Source of the DNA: a virus
Lineage: Duplodnaviria > Heunggongvirae > Uroviricota > Caudoviricetes
Virus record (IMG/VR): IMGVR_UViG_2778261034_000021
DNA: 17,726 nt
Direction: 5' to 3' (one strand)
Below, in pieces: positions 12,094 through 13,852 of this stretch; positions within the stretch are counted from its first letter, which is position 1; each line of letters opens with the position of its first letter. A program made the position numbers and the translations under genes. The notes below the pieces were generated by a model that saw only the letters and a list, made by a program, of their open reading frames with translations, was not told where the DNA came from and made no database searches.

Positions 12094-12744
12094 ATGCCGT
12101 CTGAACAGAATCTCCAACCGTGTTTTGAAATCAATCCTTGTTTGGATGAAAAATCTGTTATCAATCTTCTTCAGCAATTTGCTAACGTACTTGGCGAATT
12201 ATGGTTCCATCGCCATGAGTATGATGATAACTGGATTAATGGATGTAGGGCCTATGGATGGATAAAAAACTTTCTTGTAAAAAATCATAAAAAACTCAAA
12301 GGAGTGGCGATTCTTTCAACACCTCTGAATTTTGTGTTTACCCTGAACAGGGTGCCGTTACAGTTTGTGACCGATAAACTGGATTCACCAAAAAAGAAAC
12401 ATCGCTTATGTAAAAATGATGTTGAGTGTCGTCAGTTATCTCTTTTTGAAGATGATGTTAATTTTGAACATGATGTTACATGGCGTGTTCTGGCTGAAAA
12501 ATTACCATCTGCAAATAAAAAAGATGAAGATATTGAACCTCCAACGTGGCTTTTAGCCCTGATAGGTTTTGATTCATCAAATAATGTAGTGAGTAGATAC
12601 GAATTGGTGTCTAAAGTCCATGCTCCAGTACAAGCAGCTAATACTGACGTATTGCCAGAGGCCGTGGAAACACCACCGCTGAATTTGCAGCGGCGTGTTA
12701 AGAATGCGAAAAAAGCAGATAGTGATAAATATGGAACTATTTGA
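12094..12744 (+). CDS. Unknown protein (216 aa), first gene of an AT-rich two-gene cargo operon; candidate toxin/effector partner
   Basis: ORF-track frame 12052..12744 (TTG), trimmed to the ATG at 12094 with GAGGGA about 6 nt upstream. AT-rich codon usage unlike the flanking genes. Its 3' end overlaps the next gene by 14 nt. No motif I can recognise. Confidence 0.6.
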   Translation: MPSEQNLQPCFEINPCLDEKSVINLLQQFANVLGELWFHRHEYDDNWINGCRAYGWIKNFLVKNHKKLKGVAILSTPLNFVFTLNRVPLQFVTDKLDSPKKKHRLCKNDVECRQLSLFEDDVNFEHDVTWRVLAEKLPSANKKDEDIEPPTWLLALIGFDSSNNVVSRYELVSKVHAPVQAANTDVLPEAVETPPLNLQRRVKNAKKADSDKYGTI

Positions 12745-13852
12745 TTCTATAGGTAATTATCGTGGTGACTGCTTAAAATTAGCTCGTCAGGCTAAAGGGG
12801 TTACGGGCGAAGAGCTTGCTACTGCTTTGGGGGTGACTCGGCAATTTATAAACAAGTTAGAGCGTGGTTATCCCCCTTCATCTCAGATGTTGACAGCTCT
12901 TGCAGATTATCTGGATGTTAAAGAGTCGTTTTTCTTCACTGGAAGGAAATCACCATTAGACAGCGAGAACTGCCATTTCAGAAGCAAGAGATCAAGGACG
13001 CAGTCCTTAACTAATAGTATTCTGGCTCGAGCTGAAATTTTGGAGCAGTTTGTAAAGTGTTTGGAAACAGAAATAGTTCTTCCAGAATTGAACTTTCCTG
13101 ATACGTCCGGATTACCTTTGAACTCCGATGAAGATATTGAAAGAATTGCCGAGGCCTGTAGAAGGTATTGGGGTTTGGGGCTGGGACCGATATCTTCAAT
13201 GGTTAATTTCGTGGAAAGTATTGGGGTTGTTGTTGCTCATGTATCTGGCGTGGATGATCGTATTGATGCGTTTACTATTAATAGTAAACGCCCATTGATA
13301 ATTAGAAATTCCGCGAAAAAGAGTGTGTGTCGATTTCGCTCAGATCTCGGTCATGAACTGGGGCATCTTGTTTTGCATGAAGGGATTATAACAGGGGATA
13401 AAATTACAGAACATCATGCGGATTATTTTTCGAGCGCATTCCTTGTACCTAGAGTTTCGTTCGTTAATGAATTTCCTAAAATGCGAGGATCGCATCTTGA
13501 CTGGAATGCACTAATTAATTTCAAAGAACGATGGAAAATCAGTCTTCGCATGTGTATTTATCGTGCTACGGTTTTGGGGCTGATTACGCCACAACAAATG
13601 AGAACGGGATTTATCCATCTAAATAAAAGAGGGACGATTAAAGGAGAGATGGGGGATGAGTTAATCCCTGAGGAAAAACCTCGCTTACTTTCCTGTGCAG
13701 TTGAATTGCTGGATATATCTTCTTGGAAGCAGATACTGGATATGTCGGGAGTGAGGGAACGCTTTGTTTCCAAAATGTTTGGAATAAGGCGCACACATGA
13801 TGATATATCGAGTAATATTGTGCCTCTTTATAGATACAAAGACTTTGGTTAA
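12731..13852 (+). CDS. Fused XRE-family HTH + ImmA/IrrE-type zinc metallopeptidase (COG2856-like, about 373 aa)
   Basis: N-terminal HTH (GVTGEELATALGVTRQFINKLERG) and a central HExxH zinc-binding motif (SDLGHELGHLVLHEG). The start could instead be the ATG at 12704. Overlaps the upstream gene, which suggests translational coupling. Confidence 0.8.
   Translation: MELFDSIGNYRGDCLKLARQAKGVTGEELATALGVTRQFINKLERGYPPSSQMLTALADYLDVKESFFFTGRKSPLDSENCHFRSKRSRTQSLTNSILARAEILEQFVKCLETEIVLPELNFPDTSGLPLNSDEDIERIAEACRRYWGLGLGPISSMVNFVESIGVVVAHVSGVDDRIDAFTINSKRPLIIRNSAKKSVCRFRSDLGHELGHLVLHEGIITGDKITEHHADYFSSAFLVPRVSFVNEFPKMRGSHLDWNALINFKERWKISLRMCIYRATVLGLITPQQMRTGFIHLNKRGTIKGEMGDELIPEEKPRLLSCAVELLDISSWKQILDMSGVRERFVSKMFGIRRTHDDISSNIVPLYRYKDFG

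What the first reader, a model, noticed from the sequence alone, without database searches (positions are those of the whole stretch)
12094..13852. AT-rich two-gene cargo operon: unknown 216-aa protein plus fused HTH-ImmA/IrrE metallopeptidase; candidate novel defence or toxin-antitoxin module
Seen in sequence: the two genes overlap by 14 nt, are visibly AT-richer than the replication module on the left and the nin genes on the right, and sit at a module boundary where lambdoid phages carry morons. The second protein has an XRE HTH followed by an HExxH peptidase motif. The first protein has no motif I recognise. Established knowledge: HTH-plus-Zn-peptidase (COG2856) proteins serve as antitoxins or sensors in two-gene toxin-antitoxin and anti-phage modules (the RosmerTA class as I recall it), and ImmA-type proteases cleave repressors in ICEBs1-type switches. 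Inference: gene 1 is a toxin or effector held in check by the HTH-peptidase. An alternative is that the protease inactivates the prophage repressor at 7694-8113, which lacks its own autopeptidase domain.
Basis: partly seen in the sequence, partly recalled or inferred. Interest (0 to 1): 0.9.

Follow-up and report, generated by a model that had tools for sequence, protein, structure and literature searches.

The report
Prophage RosmerTA toxin-antitoxin defence module
The two AT-rich genes are a member of the already described RosmerTA class of toxin-antitoxin/anti-phage modules, carried as cargo by a Rac-like E. coli prophage; the one new point is that its toxin family has a conserved loop motif (QLSLF) identical to the consensus that proteins use to bind the DNA sliding clamp.

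Summary
Two + strand genes (12094-12744, 216 aa; 12731-13852, 373 aa) overlap by 14 nt. Their GC is 40%, against 50-54% in the flanks. They fill a variable cargo slot (11734-13861) of a Rac-like prophage integrated at ttcA in Shiga-toxin-type E. coli.

It is not a new kind of system. PADLOC models call gene 1 RmrT (PDLC03929, E 1.4e-18, full length) and gene 2 RmrA (PDLC03943, E 5.7e-107; HTH_3 + Peptidase_M78, HELGH intact), so the pair is a RosmerTA module. The toxin-first pairing persists in relatives down to about 22% identity, in prophages and in non-prophage islands.

Gene 1 is unrelated to the RmrT whose phage defence was verified (E. coli OLC-716). It belongs instead to the family of Vmi480, a validated lethal toxin of Vibrio mimicus.

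The alternative, a protease for the prophage repressor, is not supported.

New here: a confident AF2 model of the toxin resembles restriction endonucleases weakly, without their catalytic motif. A loop carries QLSLF, the beta-clamp-binding consensus, and 73% of 170 family members have such a motif. This suggests, but does not prove, a replication-clamp poison.

Verdict: new member of a known kind. Interest is moderate.

The parts
11734..11939 (+). Left edge of the variable cargo slot, with the remnant of a truncated ORF (the mechanical ORF 11709-11939 spans the breakpoint; PGAP marks a pseudogene ending at 11939, missing its N-terminus)
   Evidence: Homology to the module-less Rac-like prophage L016 ends at 11733. 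PGAP pseudogene at locus positions 12840-13040 of L001. No Pfam hit.
12000..12063 (+). Candidate promoter/operator region of the operon. GGTTGAC 12000-12006 contains a -35 TTGACG (12002-12007), followed by a 17-nt spacer and a -10-like AAAGAT (12025-12030). A second tandem copy has GGTTTAC 12033-12039 and AAAGAT 12058-12063.
   Evidence: GGTTGAC is invariant upstream of six homologous pairs whose toxins are only 22-58% identical to gene 1. It is followed by an A-rich 17-nt spacer and a -10-like hexamer (alignment A3). The simple sigma-70 scan did not list it, so promoter function is inferred.
12094..12744 (+). rmrT: 216-aa predicted toxin of the PDLC03929 / Vmi480 family. Soluble, with no transmembrane segment.
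   Evidence: PADLOC RmrT PDLC03929, E 1.4e-18, aa 12-212 on profile positions 9-197 of 198. PHROG 5786, E 6.6e-72. 126 cluster representatives found by profile search; all 68 aligned full-length members hit PDLC03929. AF2 pLDDT 88.3. Maximum Kyte-Doolittle hydropathy over 19 residues is 1.20.
12433..12447 (+). Codons for QLSLF (aa 114-118), a candidate beta-sliding-clamp-binding motif. It sits at the end of a short helix, going into a variable acidic loop.
   Evidence: The motif is identical to the QL(S/D)LF consensus (PMC9690074). 124 of 170 family members have a motif of this type at aa 95-135, against 6.2 +/- 2.4 in shuffles.
12731..13852 (+). rmrA: 373-aa predicted antitoxin/regulator. N-terminal XRE HTH (aa 12-67, nt 12764-12931), linker, M78/ImmA-type Zn-peptidase (aa 162-279, nt 13214-13567), and a C-terminal region with no family hit.
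   Evidence: PADLOC RmrA PDLC03943, E 5.7e-107. Pfam HTH_3 + Peptidase_M78. 30% identity, E 2e-36, to the verified OLC-716 RmrA. PHROG 2439.
13352..13366 (+). Codons for HELGH (aa 208-212), the HExxH zinc/catalytic motif. It is followed by E-HH-AD-YFSSAFLVP, which would supply the third ligand.
   Evidence: The motif aligns with HELGH of OLC-716 RmrA and of the NCTC86 allele.
13853..13861 (.). Right edge of the cargo slot. The conserved sok/hokD element begins at 13862.
   Evidence: Homology to L016 and L014 resumes at exactly 13862. Rfam sok 13862-14037. hokD is annotated downstream.

Best explanation
The region is a RosmerTA-type two-gene toxin-antitoxin / anti-phage module, carried as an autonomously transcribed cargo ('moron') in the variable slot between the replication genes and the hok/nin region of a Rac-like prophage.

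Shown by computation here:
- Gene 1 is an RmrT of the PDLC03929 family.
- Gene 2 is an RmrA (HTH + M78 Zn-peptidase with HExxH intact).
- The toxin-first, overlapping pair is conserved down to about 22% toxin identity and moves between prophages and chromosomal islands as a unit.
- A GGTTGAC-containing promoter-like element is conserved upstream.

Taken from experiments on relatives:
- The family member Vmi480 is lethal when expressed alone and is neutralised by its partner Vmi470.
- rmrA-type genes cannot be deleted alone.
- A relative in E. coli E101 makes clpP essential.
- One RosmerTA system, which has an unrelated toxin, protects E. coli from phages.

Inferred:
- RmrA keeps RmrT harmless, by repressing the operon through its HTH and/or by acting on the toxin with its peptidase domain, probably with help from ClpXP.
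- Phage infection upsets this balance, and the freed toxin stops growth and phage replication.
- The most likely target is the beta sliding clamp (DnaN), bound through the conserved QLSLF loop on a catalytically degenerate restriction-endonuclease-like scaffold.

My confidence that this is a RosmerTA toxin-antitoxin pair is about 0.85. That it defends against phages, about 0.6. That the toxin acts on the clamp, about 0.35.
For: Classification:
- PADLOC RmrT E 1.4e-18 and RmrA E 5.7e-107.
- The best T and A models (03929/03943) have the same +14 offset as the models hit by the verified OLC-716 pair (03935/03949). This suggests one paired subtype.

Pair conservation and mobility:
- Proteus lambdoid prophages carry the pair at the same position, with the same 14-nt overlap.
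- It is in a Tenebrionicola prophage and in a non-prophage islet between tex and nfuA.
- Distant members P0019 and P0026 are followed by HTH+M78 genes.
- A Vibrio fluvialis island carries it next to a reverse-transcriptase gene plus an AAA-ATPase gene that look retron-like (my reading of the Pfam hits).
- A second E. coli allele lies next to hokD.

Link to a validated toxin:
- The termini of Vmi480/470, read from the published primers, match the V. fluvialis family member: MTKKPEFY against MTPKPEFY, KVQKKVSDE* against KIQKEVDDDE*, a 5-bp spacer in both, and lengths 198/362 against 199/361 aa.

Literature:
- RosmerTA definition; delta-rmrA could not be transformed (10.1101/2022.05.11.491447).
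- The E101 toxin, 33%/42% identical to Vmi480/470, makes clpP essential (10.1101/2020.05.25.114553).
- rmrA and clpX are essential in Pectobacteriaceae that carry RosmerTA.
- The Rosmer toxin RipA targets the hydrophobic pocket of DnaN (PMC12795458).

Motif and fold:
- QLSLF statistics and the clamp-binding consensus.

Foreign origin and own promoter.
Against: - No experiment exists on this allele. Toxicity, neutralisation and defence are all extrapolated.
- The only RosmerTA in E. coli with shown phage defence has a toxin with no detectable relationship to gene 1 (BLASTP; hhalign probability 3.4%).
- The PADLOC hit of gene 1 is clear but divergent (65 bits; family members reach E 3e-72).
- The clamp idea rests on a short motif. 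It is conserved, but it sits partly in a predicted helix, and it could be a structural element or a decayed QxxxY nuclease motif.
- Foldseek against the PDB found nothing. Profile search against PDB sequences found nothing.
- No interaction model with DnaN could be made.
- No deposited phage genome carries a homologue of gene 1 (tblastn).
- The simple sigma-70 scan did not report the proposed promoter.
Confidence: 0.8

Rival explanations
1. Gene 2 is an ImmA-type anti-repressor protease of the prophage switch. It would cleave the S24-less repressor at 7694-8113 (or its own HTH), and gene 1 would be an accessory factor.
For: The repressor has only an HTH_3 domain. M78/ImmA proteases cleave ImmR-type repressors in ICEBs1 (established knowledge; restated in PMC10440598).
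Against: - The identical repressor (WP_000410105.1) occurs in 153 genomes but the module in only 31. O145:H28 RM13514 has that repressor and a different cargo in the slot.
- A mouse E. coli carries the identical module with a different repressor and cro.
- Homologous pairs sit in Proteus prophages whose CI has its own S24 domain and in non-prophage islands.
- The constant partner is the roughly 200-aa protein, not a repressor.
- HTH and peptidase are fused, and the genes lie about 4 kb from the immunity region.
- The prophage has a separate Rha/Ash antirepressor-type gene with C4/isrK RNAs at 5975-6823.
Confidence: 0.04
2. The pair is only an addiction/stabilisation module that keeps the prophage or its cargo slot in the genome, with no role in phage defence.
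For: The antitoxin gene cannot be deleted alone in relatives. The window holds two other TA loci, ralR/RalA and hokD/sok, which is typical of prophage maintenance. Defence has been shown for only two RosmerTA systems, both with unrelated toxins.
Against: RosmerTA was discovered through enrichment in defence islands, and it protects E. coli when cloned. The Vibrio family member lies beside a retron-like reverse-transcriptase/ATPase pair. The two roles are not exclusive.
Confidence: 0.15
3. RmrT kills as a PD-(D/E)xK-type nuclease. QLSLF is then the decayed QxxxY helix motif of such enzymes, not a clamp-binding motif.
Against: - No conserved D...(D/E)xK. The candidate Asp before strand 2 is conserved in only 47% of members and is Asn79 in this protein. 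Strand 3 reads VP-x-(R/Q/K)-F, with no acidic-x-Lys.
- Foldseek gave no hit.
- No PD-(D/E)xK Pfam family is hit beyond one chance-level match.
Confidence: 0.12

Closest known systems
RosmerTA of E. coli OLC-716 (Millman et al. 2022; RmrT 239 aa / RmrA 370 aa), the verified anti-phage system
   Same: Toxin-first two-gene operon. RmrA has the same HTH + M78 architecture and HELGH motif, with 30% identity (E 2e-36) to gene 2. Both come from E. coli.
   Different: The toxins are unrelated (BLASTP E 1.9; hhalign probability 3.4%). They hit different PADLOC subtypes: 03935/03949 against 03929/03943.
Vmi480/Vmi470 of Vibrio mimicus MGIVmi1 (Luo et al. 2015, PMC4671572), and its E. coli E101 relative E101_02645/02644 (Rousset et al.)
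   Same: Same toxin family, linked through the V. fluvialis member P0022. Toxin first, about 200 aa, followed by an HTH-Zn-peptidase of about 360 aa.
   Different: Only about 25% identity to gene 1 at that distance (27% for P0022). These systems lie in a mobilisable island rather than a lambdoid prophage, and have a 5-bp gap instead of a 14-nt overlap. The full Vmi480 and E101 sequences could not be retrieved, so the link rests on termini, lengths and published identities.
NCTC86-type allele WP_001004956.1 / WP_000401168.1, in about 238 complete E. coli genomes
   Same: 41% (toxin) and 59% (antitoxin) identity. Same PADLOC models. Also in a lambdoid prophage beside hokD, and also carries EQLSLF.
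   Different: It lies downstream of hokD, between hok and its terminator, not upstream. It is far commoner than the window's allele, which is in 31 genomes.
RipA/RipB (Spr1630/Spr1629) of Streptococcus pneumoniae (PMC12795458)
   Same: A Rosmer-family pair with an HTH-ImmA antitoxin. Gene 2 hits NCBIfam antitox_spr1629 at E 1.7e-47, below its cut-off. The toxin acts on the hydrophobic pocket of DnaN, and neutralisation needs ClpX. This is the mechanism proposed here.
   Different: No similarity of gene 1 to any NCBIfam model. Gram-positive chromosomal locus.
SocAB of Caulobacter crescentus (Aakre et al. 2013; summarised in PMC9690074)
   Same: The toxin binds the beta clamp through a clamp-binding motif. 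ClpXP is essential because it removes the toxin. This parallels the ClpP/ClpX dependence reported for Rosmer toxins.
   Different: SocA is a proteolytic adaptor with neither an HTH nor a peptidase. No sequence relationship was tested or is claimed.
ImmA/ImmR (ICEBs1), IrrE/DdrO and CapP/CapH
   Same: An M78 Zn-peptidase working with an XRE HTH. Gene 2 hits capP at E 1e-11 and capH at E 1.6e-3.
   Different: There the protease and the HTH are separate proteins, and the protease cleaves the repressor to switch on a neighbouring programme. Here they are fused, and the conserved partner is a toxin.
RmrTA of Gordonia phage Kita (Ernits et al. 2023, PMC10440598)
   Same: Phage-borne RosmerTA with narrow anti-phage activity.
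   Different: Its toxin is membrane-targeted and depolarising. Gene 1 has no hydrophobic segment.

Membership tests
RosmerTA (Millman 2022; PADLOC / DefenseFinder definition) | RmrA: an N-terminal XRE HTH fused to an ImmA/IrrE (M78) Zn-peptidase domain with HExxH | tested here: met
   Pfam HTH_3 E 5.8e-13 and Peptidase_M78 E 5.6e-13. PADLOC RmrA PDLC03943 E 5.7e-107, with 13 further RmrA models. HELGH at aa 208-212.
RosmerTA (Millman 2022; PADLOC / DefenseFinder definition) | An adjacent, co-oriented gene recognised by one of the RmrT models | tested here: met
   PADLOC RmrT PDLC03929 E 1.4e-18, covering 189 of 198 profile positions. All 68 aligned relatives hit the same model. 14-nt overlap with rmrA.
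RosmerTA (Millman 2022; PADLOC / DefenseFinder definition) | The T-A pairing is conserved across relatives, i.e. it is a functional unit | tested here: met
   An HTH+M78 gene lies directly downstream in Proteus, Tenebrionicola, an Enterobacteriaceae MAG, two metagenome contigs, V. fluvialis and E. coli NCTC86.
RosmerTA (Millman 2022; PADLOC / DefenseFinder definition) | The toxin is toxic alone and is neutralised by RmrA | not testable with these tools
   Shown only for relatives: Vmi480/470, the untransformable delta-rmrA, and essential rmrA in Pectobacteriaceae.
RosmerTA (Millman 2022; PADLOC / DefenseFinder definition) | Protection against phage infection | not testable with these tools
   Shown for the OLC-716 and phage Kita systems, whose toxins are unrelated to gene 1.
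Homology to the verified RmrT (OLC-716 family, PDLC03935) | Detectable sequence or profile similarity | tested here: not met
   BLASTP E 1.9. hhalign of A2 against A4 gives probability 3.4%. OLC-716 RmrT hits PDLC03935, not PDLC03929.
Beta-clamp-binding toxins (SocB / RipA type) | A clamp-binding motif of the QL(S/D)LF type in an exposed segment | tested here: met
   QLSLF at aa 114-118. 124 of 170 relatives have a matching penta- or hexapeptide at the same place, against 6.2 +/- 2.4 in shuffles. The motif is followed by a length-variable acidic loop. Consensus from PMC9690074.
Beta-clamp-binding toxins (SocB / RipA type) | Physical binding to DnaN, and suppression by dnaN pocket mutations | not testable with these tools
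No complex prediction or experiment was possible.
PD-(D/E)xK restriction-endonuclease-like nucleases | The alpha-beta-beta-beta-alpha-beta core fold | tested here: inconclusive
PD-(D/E)xK restriction-endonuclease-like nucleases | The catalytic D ... (D/E)xK residues | tested here: not met
   The family alignment shows no conserved (D/E)xK on strand 3. The Asp before strand 2 is present in 47% of members and is Asn79 here.
ImmA/ImmR-type mobile-element switch | Protease encoded beside a separate cognate repressor in the immunity/integration module, and co-varying with it | tested here: not met
   HTH and protease are fused. The module is about 4 kb from the repressor. Repressor and module occur independently of each other. 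Pairs also occur outside prophages.

The most novel reading that the evidence does not exclude
The PDLC03929/Vmi480 family of RosmerTA toxins, including this one, are replication poisons. They would use a canonical QL(S/D)LF clamp-binding loop, displayed on a catalytically dead restriction-endonuclease-like scaffold, to occupy the hydrophobic pocket of the beta sliding clamp. RmrA together with ClpXP would keep the toxin low until phage infection releases it. This would join SocB, RipA and this family into one recurrent strategy: clamp poisoning held in check by proteolysis. It would also give the first target for the commonest RosmerTA subtype in E. coli prophages.
Probability: 0.33. Interest if true: 0.6.

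Novelty: new member of a known kind. Interest (0 to 1): 0.38.

Why it matters
RosmerTA systems are widespread, and defence-finding software calls them routinely. Yet how RmrA senses infection, and what most RmrT toxins do, remain unknown. This locus adds no new kind of system.

The analysis does three useful things:
- It ties a toxin family annotated only as 'hypothetical protein' to Vmi480, a toxin already used as a counter-selection marker. The family has no Pfam entry and sits in about 5% of complete E. coli genomes (31 + about 238 of 5426).
- It gives the family a confident fold model.
- It exposes a conserved clamp-binding-type motif. That turns 'toxin of unknown function' into a hypothesis that a few mutants and a DnaN binding assay can settle.

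It also shows that STEC Rac-like prophages carry three different TA loci within 13 kb. This is relevant to prophage stability and to phage resistance in these pathogens.

Tried and rejected
- Foldseek of the good model against the PDB: nothing with E <= 0.001; best E 0.19.
- afdb50 fold search: library unavailable.
- Profile of the toxin family against PDB sequences: no hit even at E 10.
- RmrA against PDB sequences: only HTH domains hit, and no solved close relative.
- Pfam on all 68 family members: only scattered chance hits.
- NCBIfam on gene 1: none. On gene 2: spr1629-type antitoxin, below its cut-off.
- BLASTP and hhalign against the verified OLC-716 RmrT family: no relationship. The idea that gene 1 is a diverged copy of the tested toxin was dropped.
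- tblastn of gene 1 against 50,697 phage genomes: no match. Against plasmids: only two E. coli plasmids, both carrying the NCTC86-type allele.
- The search for related loci with the deep alignment failed for lack of a conserved stretch. With the shallow alignment it gave only two loci.
- Millman's Table S11 is truncated in the held copy. I could not see whether this exact locus is listed there.
- The Vmi480 and E101 protein sequences could not be fetched. The link was made from primer-encoded termini instead.
- Whether the E101 suppressor T46S falls in the conserved W-(T/S)-x-G column: compatible but uninformative, because both T and S are common there.
- A transmembrane toxin like phage Kita's RmrT: rejected, no hydrophobic segment.
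- A palindromic operator: the 16-nt near-palindrome at 12002-12017 is not conserved in homologues. The conserved element is GGTTGAC.
- An intrinsic terminator after gene 2: none predicted before the hok terminator at 14256-14273.
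Full report
**1. The observation**

Reading the sequence confirms two + strand ORFs. Gene 1 runs from ATG 12094 to stop 12744 (216 aa) and is preceded by GAGGG at 12082-12086. Gene 2 runs from ATG 12731 to stop 13852 (373 aa). They overlap by 14 nt.

The module has 40.0% GC. 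GC3 is 0.29 for gene 1 and 0.35 for gene 2. The replication-side genes on the left have 50-54% GC. On the right, the DUF1367 and DUF1364 genes have 51-52% and DUF1133 has 44%. Only about 1% of 1759-bp windows are as AT-rich.

Gene 2 has Pfam HTH_3 and Peptidase_M78, with HELGH at aa 208-212. Gene 1 has no Pfam or NCBIfam hit.

**2. Where the window comes from**

The window is 100% identical to a Rac-like prophage integrated next to ttcA in Shiga-toxin-type E. coli, for example strain 2011C-4251. The annotated gene order is: intR, xisR, ralR, recT, recE, kilR, a Rha-family gene, repressor, cro-like gene, ydaT, replication genes, DUF1627, DUF977, a truncated pseudogene, then the two genes. PGAP calls these two 'hypothetical protein' WP_001138877.1 and 'HTH domain-containing protein' WP_000418464.1. 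After them come hokD, DUF1367, DUF1364 and DUF1133.

The full module is present in only 31 of 5426 complete E. coli genomes, at 99.7-100% identity.

A Rac-like prophage in O145:H28 RM13514 has the identical repressor and cro but no module. Its homology to the window ends at 11733 and resumes at 13862, which is the first base of the sok/hok element. Five unrelated small genes fill the slot there.

**3. What the genes are**

PADLOC's defence-system models identify gene 1 as RmrT (PDLC03929, E 1.4e-18, covering profile positions 9-197 of 198). They identify gene 2 as RmrA (PDLC03943, E 5.7e-107, plus 13 other RmrA models).

[quoted passage not shown] Its delta-rmrA mutant could not be transformed (10.1101/2022.05.11.491447). 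Ernits et al. describe it as one ImmA-protease antitoxin hub paired with many unrelated RmrT toxins, toxin first in 58% of cases (PMC10440598).

The verified system is from E. coli OLC-716. Its RmrA is 30% identical to gene 2 (E 2e-36). Its RmrT shows no similarity to gene 1 by BLASTP or by profile-profile comparison (hhalign probability 3.4%). The OLC-716 pair hits PADLOC models 03935/03949, and the window pair hits 03929/03943. The index offset is the same in both, which suggests paired subtype models.

The locus is therefore a RosmerTA of a subtype different from the tested one.

**4. The toxin family and the conservation of the pair**

- A word-based search found only 7 relatives, all in Enterobacterales.
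- A profile search over 1.8 billion cluster representatives found 126, almost all about 200 aa long.
- All 68 full-length members that I aligned hit PDLC03929, with a best E of 3e-72.
- None of them has a Pfam family.

Wherever context could be read, an HTH+M78 gene of about 360-377 aa follows directly:

| Relative | Context | Junction |
|---|---|---|
| Proteus mirabilis (39% identity) | lambdoid prophages, same position after the replication genes and before DUF1367; the CI there has its own S24 domain | 14-nt overlap |
| Tenebrionicola | prophage | 14-nt overlap |
| Enterobacteriaceae MAG | small chromosomal islet between tex and nfuA | 26-nt overlap |
| Two metagenome contigs (toxins 22-24% identical) | one lies beside serine recombinase genes | 8-nt overlap |
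| Vibrio fluvialis | integrase-bearing island beside a reverse-transcriptase gene and an AAA-ATPase gene, which look retron-like | 5-bp gap |

E. coli has a second, commoner allele in about 238 genomes, for example NCTC86. Its toxin is 41% and its antitoxin 59% identical to the window's. It hits the same PADLOC models. It lies on the other side of hokD, between hok and its terminator.

The pair thus behaves as one mobile unit, independent of any particular prophage.

**5. Link to experiments**

Luo et al. showed that Vmi480 (198 aa, the first gene) is lethal in E. coli. Vmi470 (362 aa, HTH + Zn-peptidase), separated from it by a 5-bp gap, neutralises it, and vmi470 cannot be deleted alone (PMC4671572).

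I could not retrieve the protein, but the published primers encode its ends. These match the V. fluvialis family member:

| Feature | Vmi480/470 | V. fluvialis pair |
|---|---|---|
| Toxin N-terminus | MTKKPEFY | MTPKPEFY |
| Toxin C-terminus | KVQKKVSDE* | KIQKEVDDDE* |
| Spacer | 5 bp | 5 bp |
| Antitoxin N-terminus | MIYQAVN | MDYQANN |
| Antitoxin C-terminus | PLRSV* | PLLKTV* |
| Lengths (aa) | 198 / 362 | 199 / 361 |
| Neighbour | res2 | resolvase gene |

Vmi480 therefore almost certainly belongs to gene 1's family.

Rousset et al. report a prophage pair in E. coli E101 that is 33%/42% identical to Vmi480/470. It makes clpP essential, also when moved to K-12. A Tn-seq study found rmrA and clpX essential only in the Pectobacteriaceae strains that carry RosmerTA. 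In S. pneumoniae the Rosmer toxin RipA acts on the hydrophobic pocket of the DnaN sliding clamp, and its neutralisation by RipB needs ClpX (PMC12795458).

**6. Structure and motif of the toxin**

With the 68-sequence alignment, AlphaFold2 gives a confident model (pLDDT 88.3, pTM 0.77). It has two long helices, three strands, a short helical segment, three more strands, and an extended C-terminal tail. The shallow alignment had given pLDDT 64.

The family has no conserved D...(D/E)xK. The candidate Asp is Asn79 in this protein. I read this as a restriction-endonuclease-like scaffold that is probably not a nuclease, and I hold the fold call loosely.

The most conserved polar features are D44, W47 and G50 in one loop, and E111 with Q114-L-x-L-F after the third strand. 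In this protein the latter reads QLSLF (aa 114-118). That is exactly the bacterial clamp-binding consensus QL(S/D)LF (PMC9690074).

Of 170 full-length family members, 124 carry a penta- or hexapeptide of this type in the same region, against 6.2 +/- 2.4 in shuffled sequences. The commonest forms are QLSLF, QMDLF, QLTLF, QLSLL and QMSLL. The motif is followed by an acidic loop of very variable length. The shuffle control shows conservation, not function.

The toxin is soluble, with no hydrophobic segment. This distinguishes it from the membrane-depolarising RmrT of phage Kita.

**7. Regulation**

Upstream of six homologous pairs the heptamer GGTTGAC is invariant. It is followed by an A-rich 17-nt spacer and a -10-like hexamer (AAAGAT, AAATAT or AAAAAT). 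A second GGTT(G/T)AC often follows about 33 nt downstream.

In the window these elements are TTGACG 12002-12007 with AAAGAT 12025-12030, and a tandem second copy, TTTACA 12035-12040 with AAAGAT 12058-12063. This fits an own promoter. Autoregulation by the RmrA HTH is possible but inferred. The simple sigma-70 scan did not list the site.

**8.

The 139-aa repressor indeed lacks an S24 domain. The idea that RmrA inactivates it nevertheless fails:
- The repressor allele is in 153 genomes and the module in 31.
- The same repressor works with a different cargo in the slot.
- The identical module sits with a different repressor and cro in a mouse E. coli.
- Homologous pairs occur with S24-bearing CI proteins and outside prophages.
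- The prophage also has a Rha/Ash antirepressor-type gene with C4 and isrK RNAs, which is a more usual route for such repressors.

**9. Most likely mechanism**

Shown:
- The classification as RosmerTA.
- Conservation of the pair.
- Foreign base composition and position in a cargo slot.
- An intact HExxH motif.
- The conserved promoter-like element.

From relatives:
- The toxin is lethal alone.
- The antitoxin is needed.
- There is a dependence on ClpP/ClpX.

Inferred:
- RmrA restrains RmrT, by repression and/or by proteolysis or hand-over to ClpXP.
- Infection disturbs this balance.
- RmrT then blocks replication by occupying the clamp pocket through QLSLF. This would also stop the many phages that depend on the host clamp.

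I put about 0.85 on 'RosmerTA toxin-antitoxin pair', about 0.6 on an anti-phage role, and about 0.35 on the clamp target. The nuclease rival gets about 0.12. An unknown target takes the rest.

**10. Novelty and score**

The system is a new member of a known kind. It is called by existing models, a sister allele is common in E. coli, and a family member has been used for a decade as a counter-selection toxin.

What is new is modest: the link between the PDLC03929 family and Vmi480, the fold model, and the clamp-binding-type motif. I found no paper that states the motif, but the searchable library is incomplete.

Interest is 0.38.

Noticed in passing
window 13268-13291: A perfect 24-bp palindrome, GCGTTTACTATTAATAGTAAACGC, lies inside the rmrA coding sequence (aa 180-187, AFTINSKR). 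Only 1 of 200 shuffles of the window gave a perfect palindrome with half-length 10 or more. Its half-site GTTTAC equals the second promoter repeat GGTTTAC at 12033-12039. The NCTC86 allele has a different 16-bp perfect palindrome a few codons downstream of the equivalent position. Function unknown.
   Followed up: partly
window 13862-14187; terminator at 14256-14273: A hokD/sok type I toxin-antitoxin locus lies immediately downstream (Rfam sok, 118.8 bits). In E. coli NCTC86 the sister RosmerTA pair is inserted between hok and the hok terminator, whose 24-nt sequence reappears after rmrA. Both sides of hok therefore act as cargo insertion points.
   Followed up: partly
window 1553-1813 (- strand) and 1557-1735 (+ strand): The ralR toxin gene with its RalA antitoxin sRNA (Rfam RF02694, 219 bits). 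This is a third toxin-antitoxin locus in the same 17.7-kb window.
   Followed up: no
window 5975-7049: A Rha/Ash-family antirepressor-type gene (5975-6823, - strand), with C4 antisense RNA (6584-6671), isrK (6696-6772) and DicF (6999-7049) on the same strand. This looks like a P1/P7 ImmI-like antirepressor control region, and may be how the S24-less repressor at 7694-8113 is inactivated.
   Followed up: no
window 12024-12066: The promoter-like element is duplicated in tandem: TAAAGATTAG and TAAAGATGAG, 33 nt apart, each preceded at the same distance by GGTTGAC or GGTTTAC. This places about 30 nt more between the conserved GGTTGAC and the start codon than in the homologous loci.
   Followed up: partly
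L006 6001-6744 (Tenebrionicola larvae): The homologue is annotated at 247 aa, with a start 28 codons upstream of the conserved Met. The conserved GGTTGAC promoter element lies inside that extension, so the annotated start is probably wrong.
   Followed up: partly
OLC-716 RmrT family (alignment A4), around aa 148-158 of the 239-aa protein: The unrelated, experimentally verified RmrT also has a clamp-motif-like stretch: QLKLDL in enteric members, aligned to NLDLF in Vibrio, Photobacterium and Shewanella members. It is not universally conserved and could be chance (I estimate roughly a 20% chance of such a match somewhere in a protein of this length).
   Followed up: partly
L015 9883-13111 (Vibrio fluvialis island): The Vmi480-like RosmerTA pair lies beside a reverse transcriptase (RVT_1) plus an SMC/AAA-ATPase gene, which looks retron-like. 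A resolvase, an AlpA-type HTH and an integrase are also present. It resembles a small defence island on a mobilisable element.
   Followed up: no
window 16328-16387 and 16474-16664: A tRNA gene (annotated tRNA-Met in RefSeq) and the sRNA STnc100 (Rfam, 138 bits) lie in the late-region leader of the prophage.
   Followed up: no
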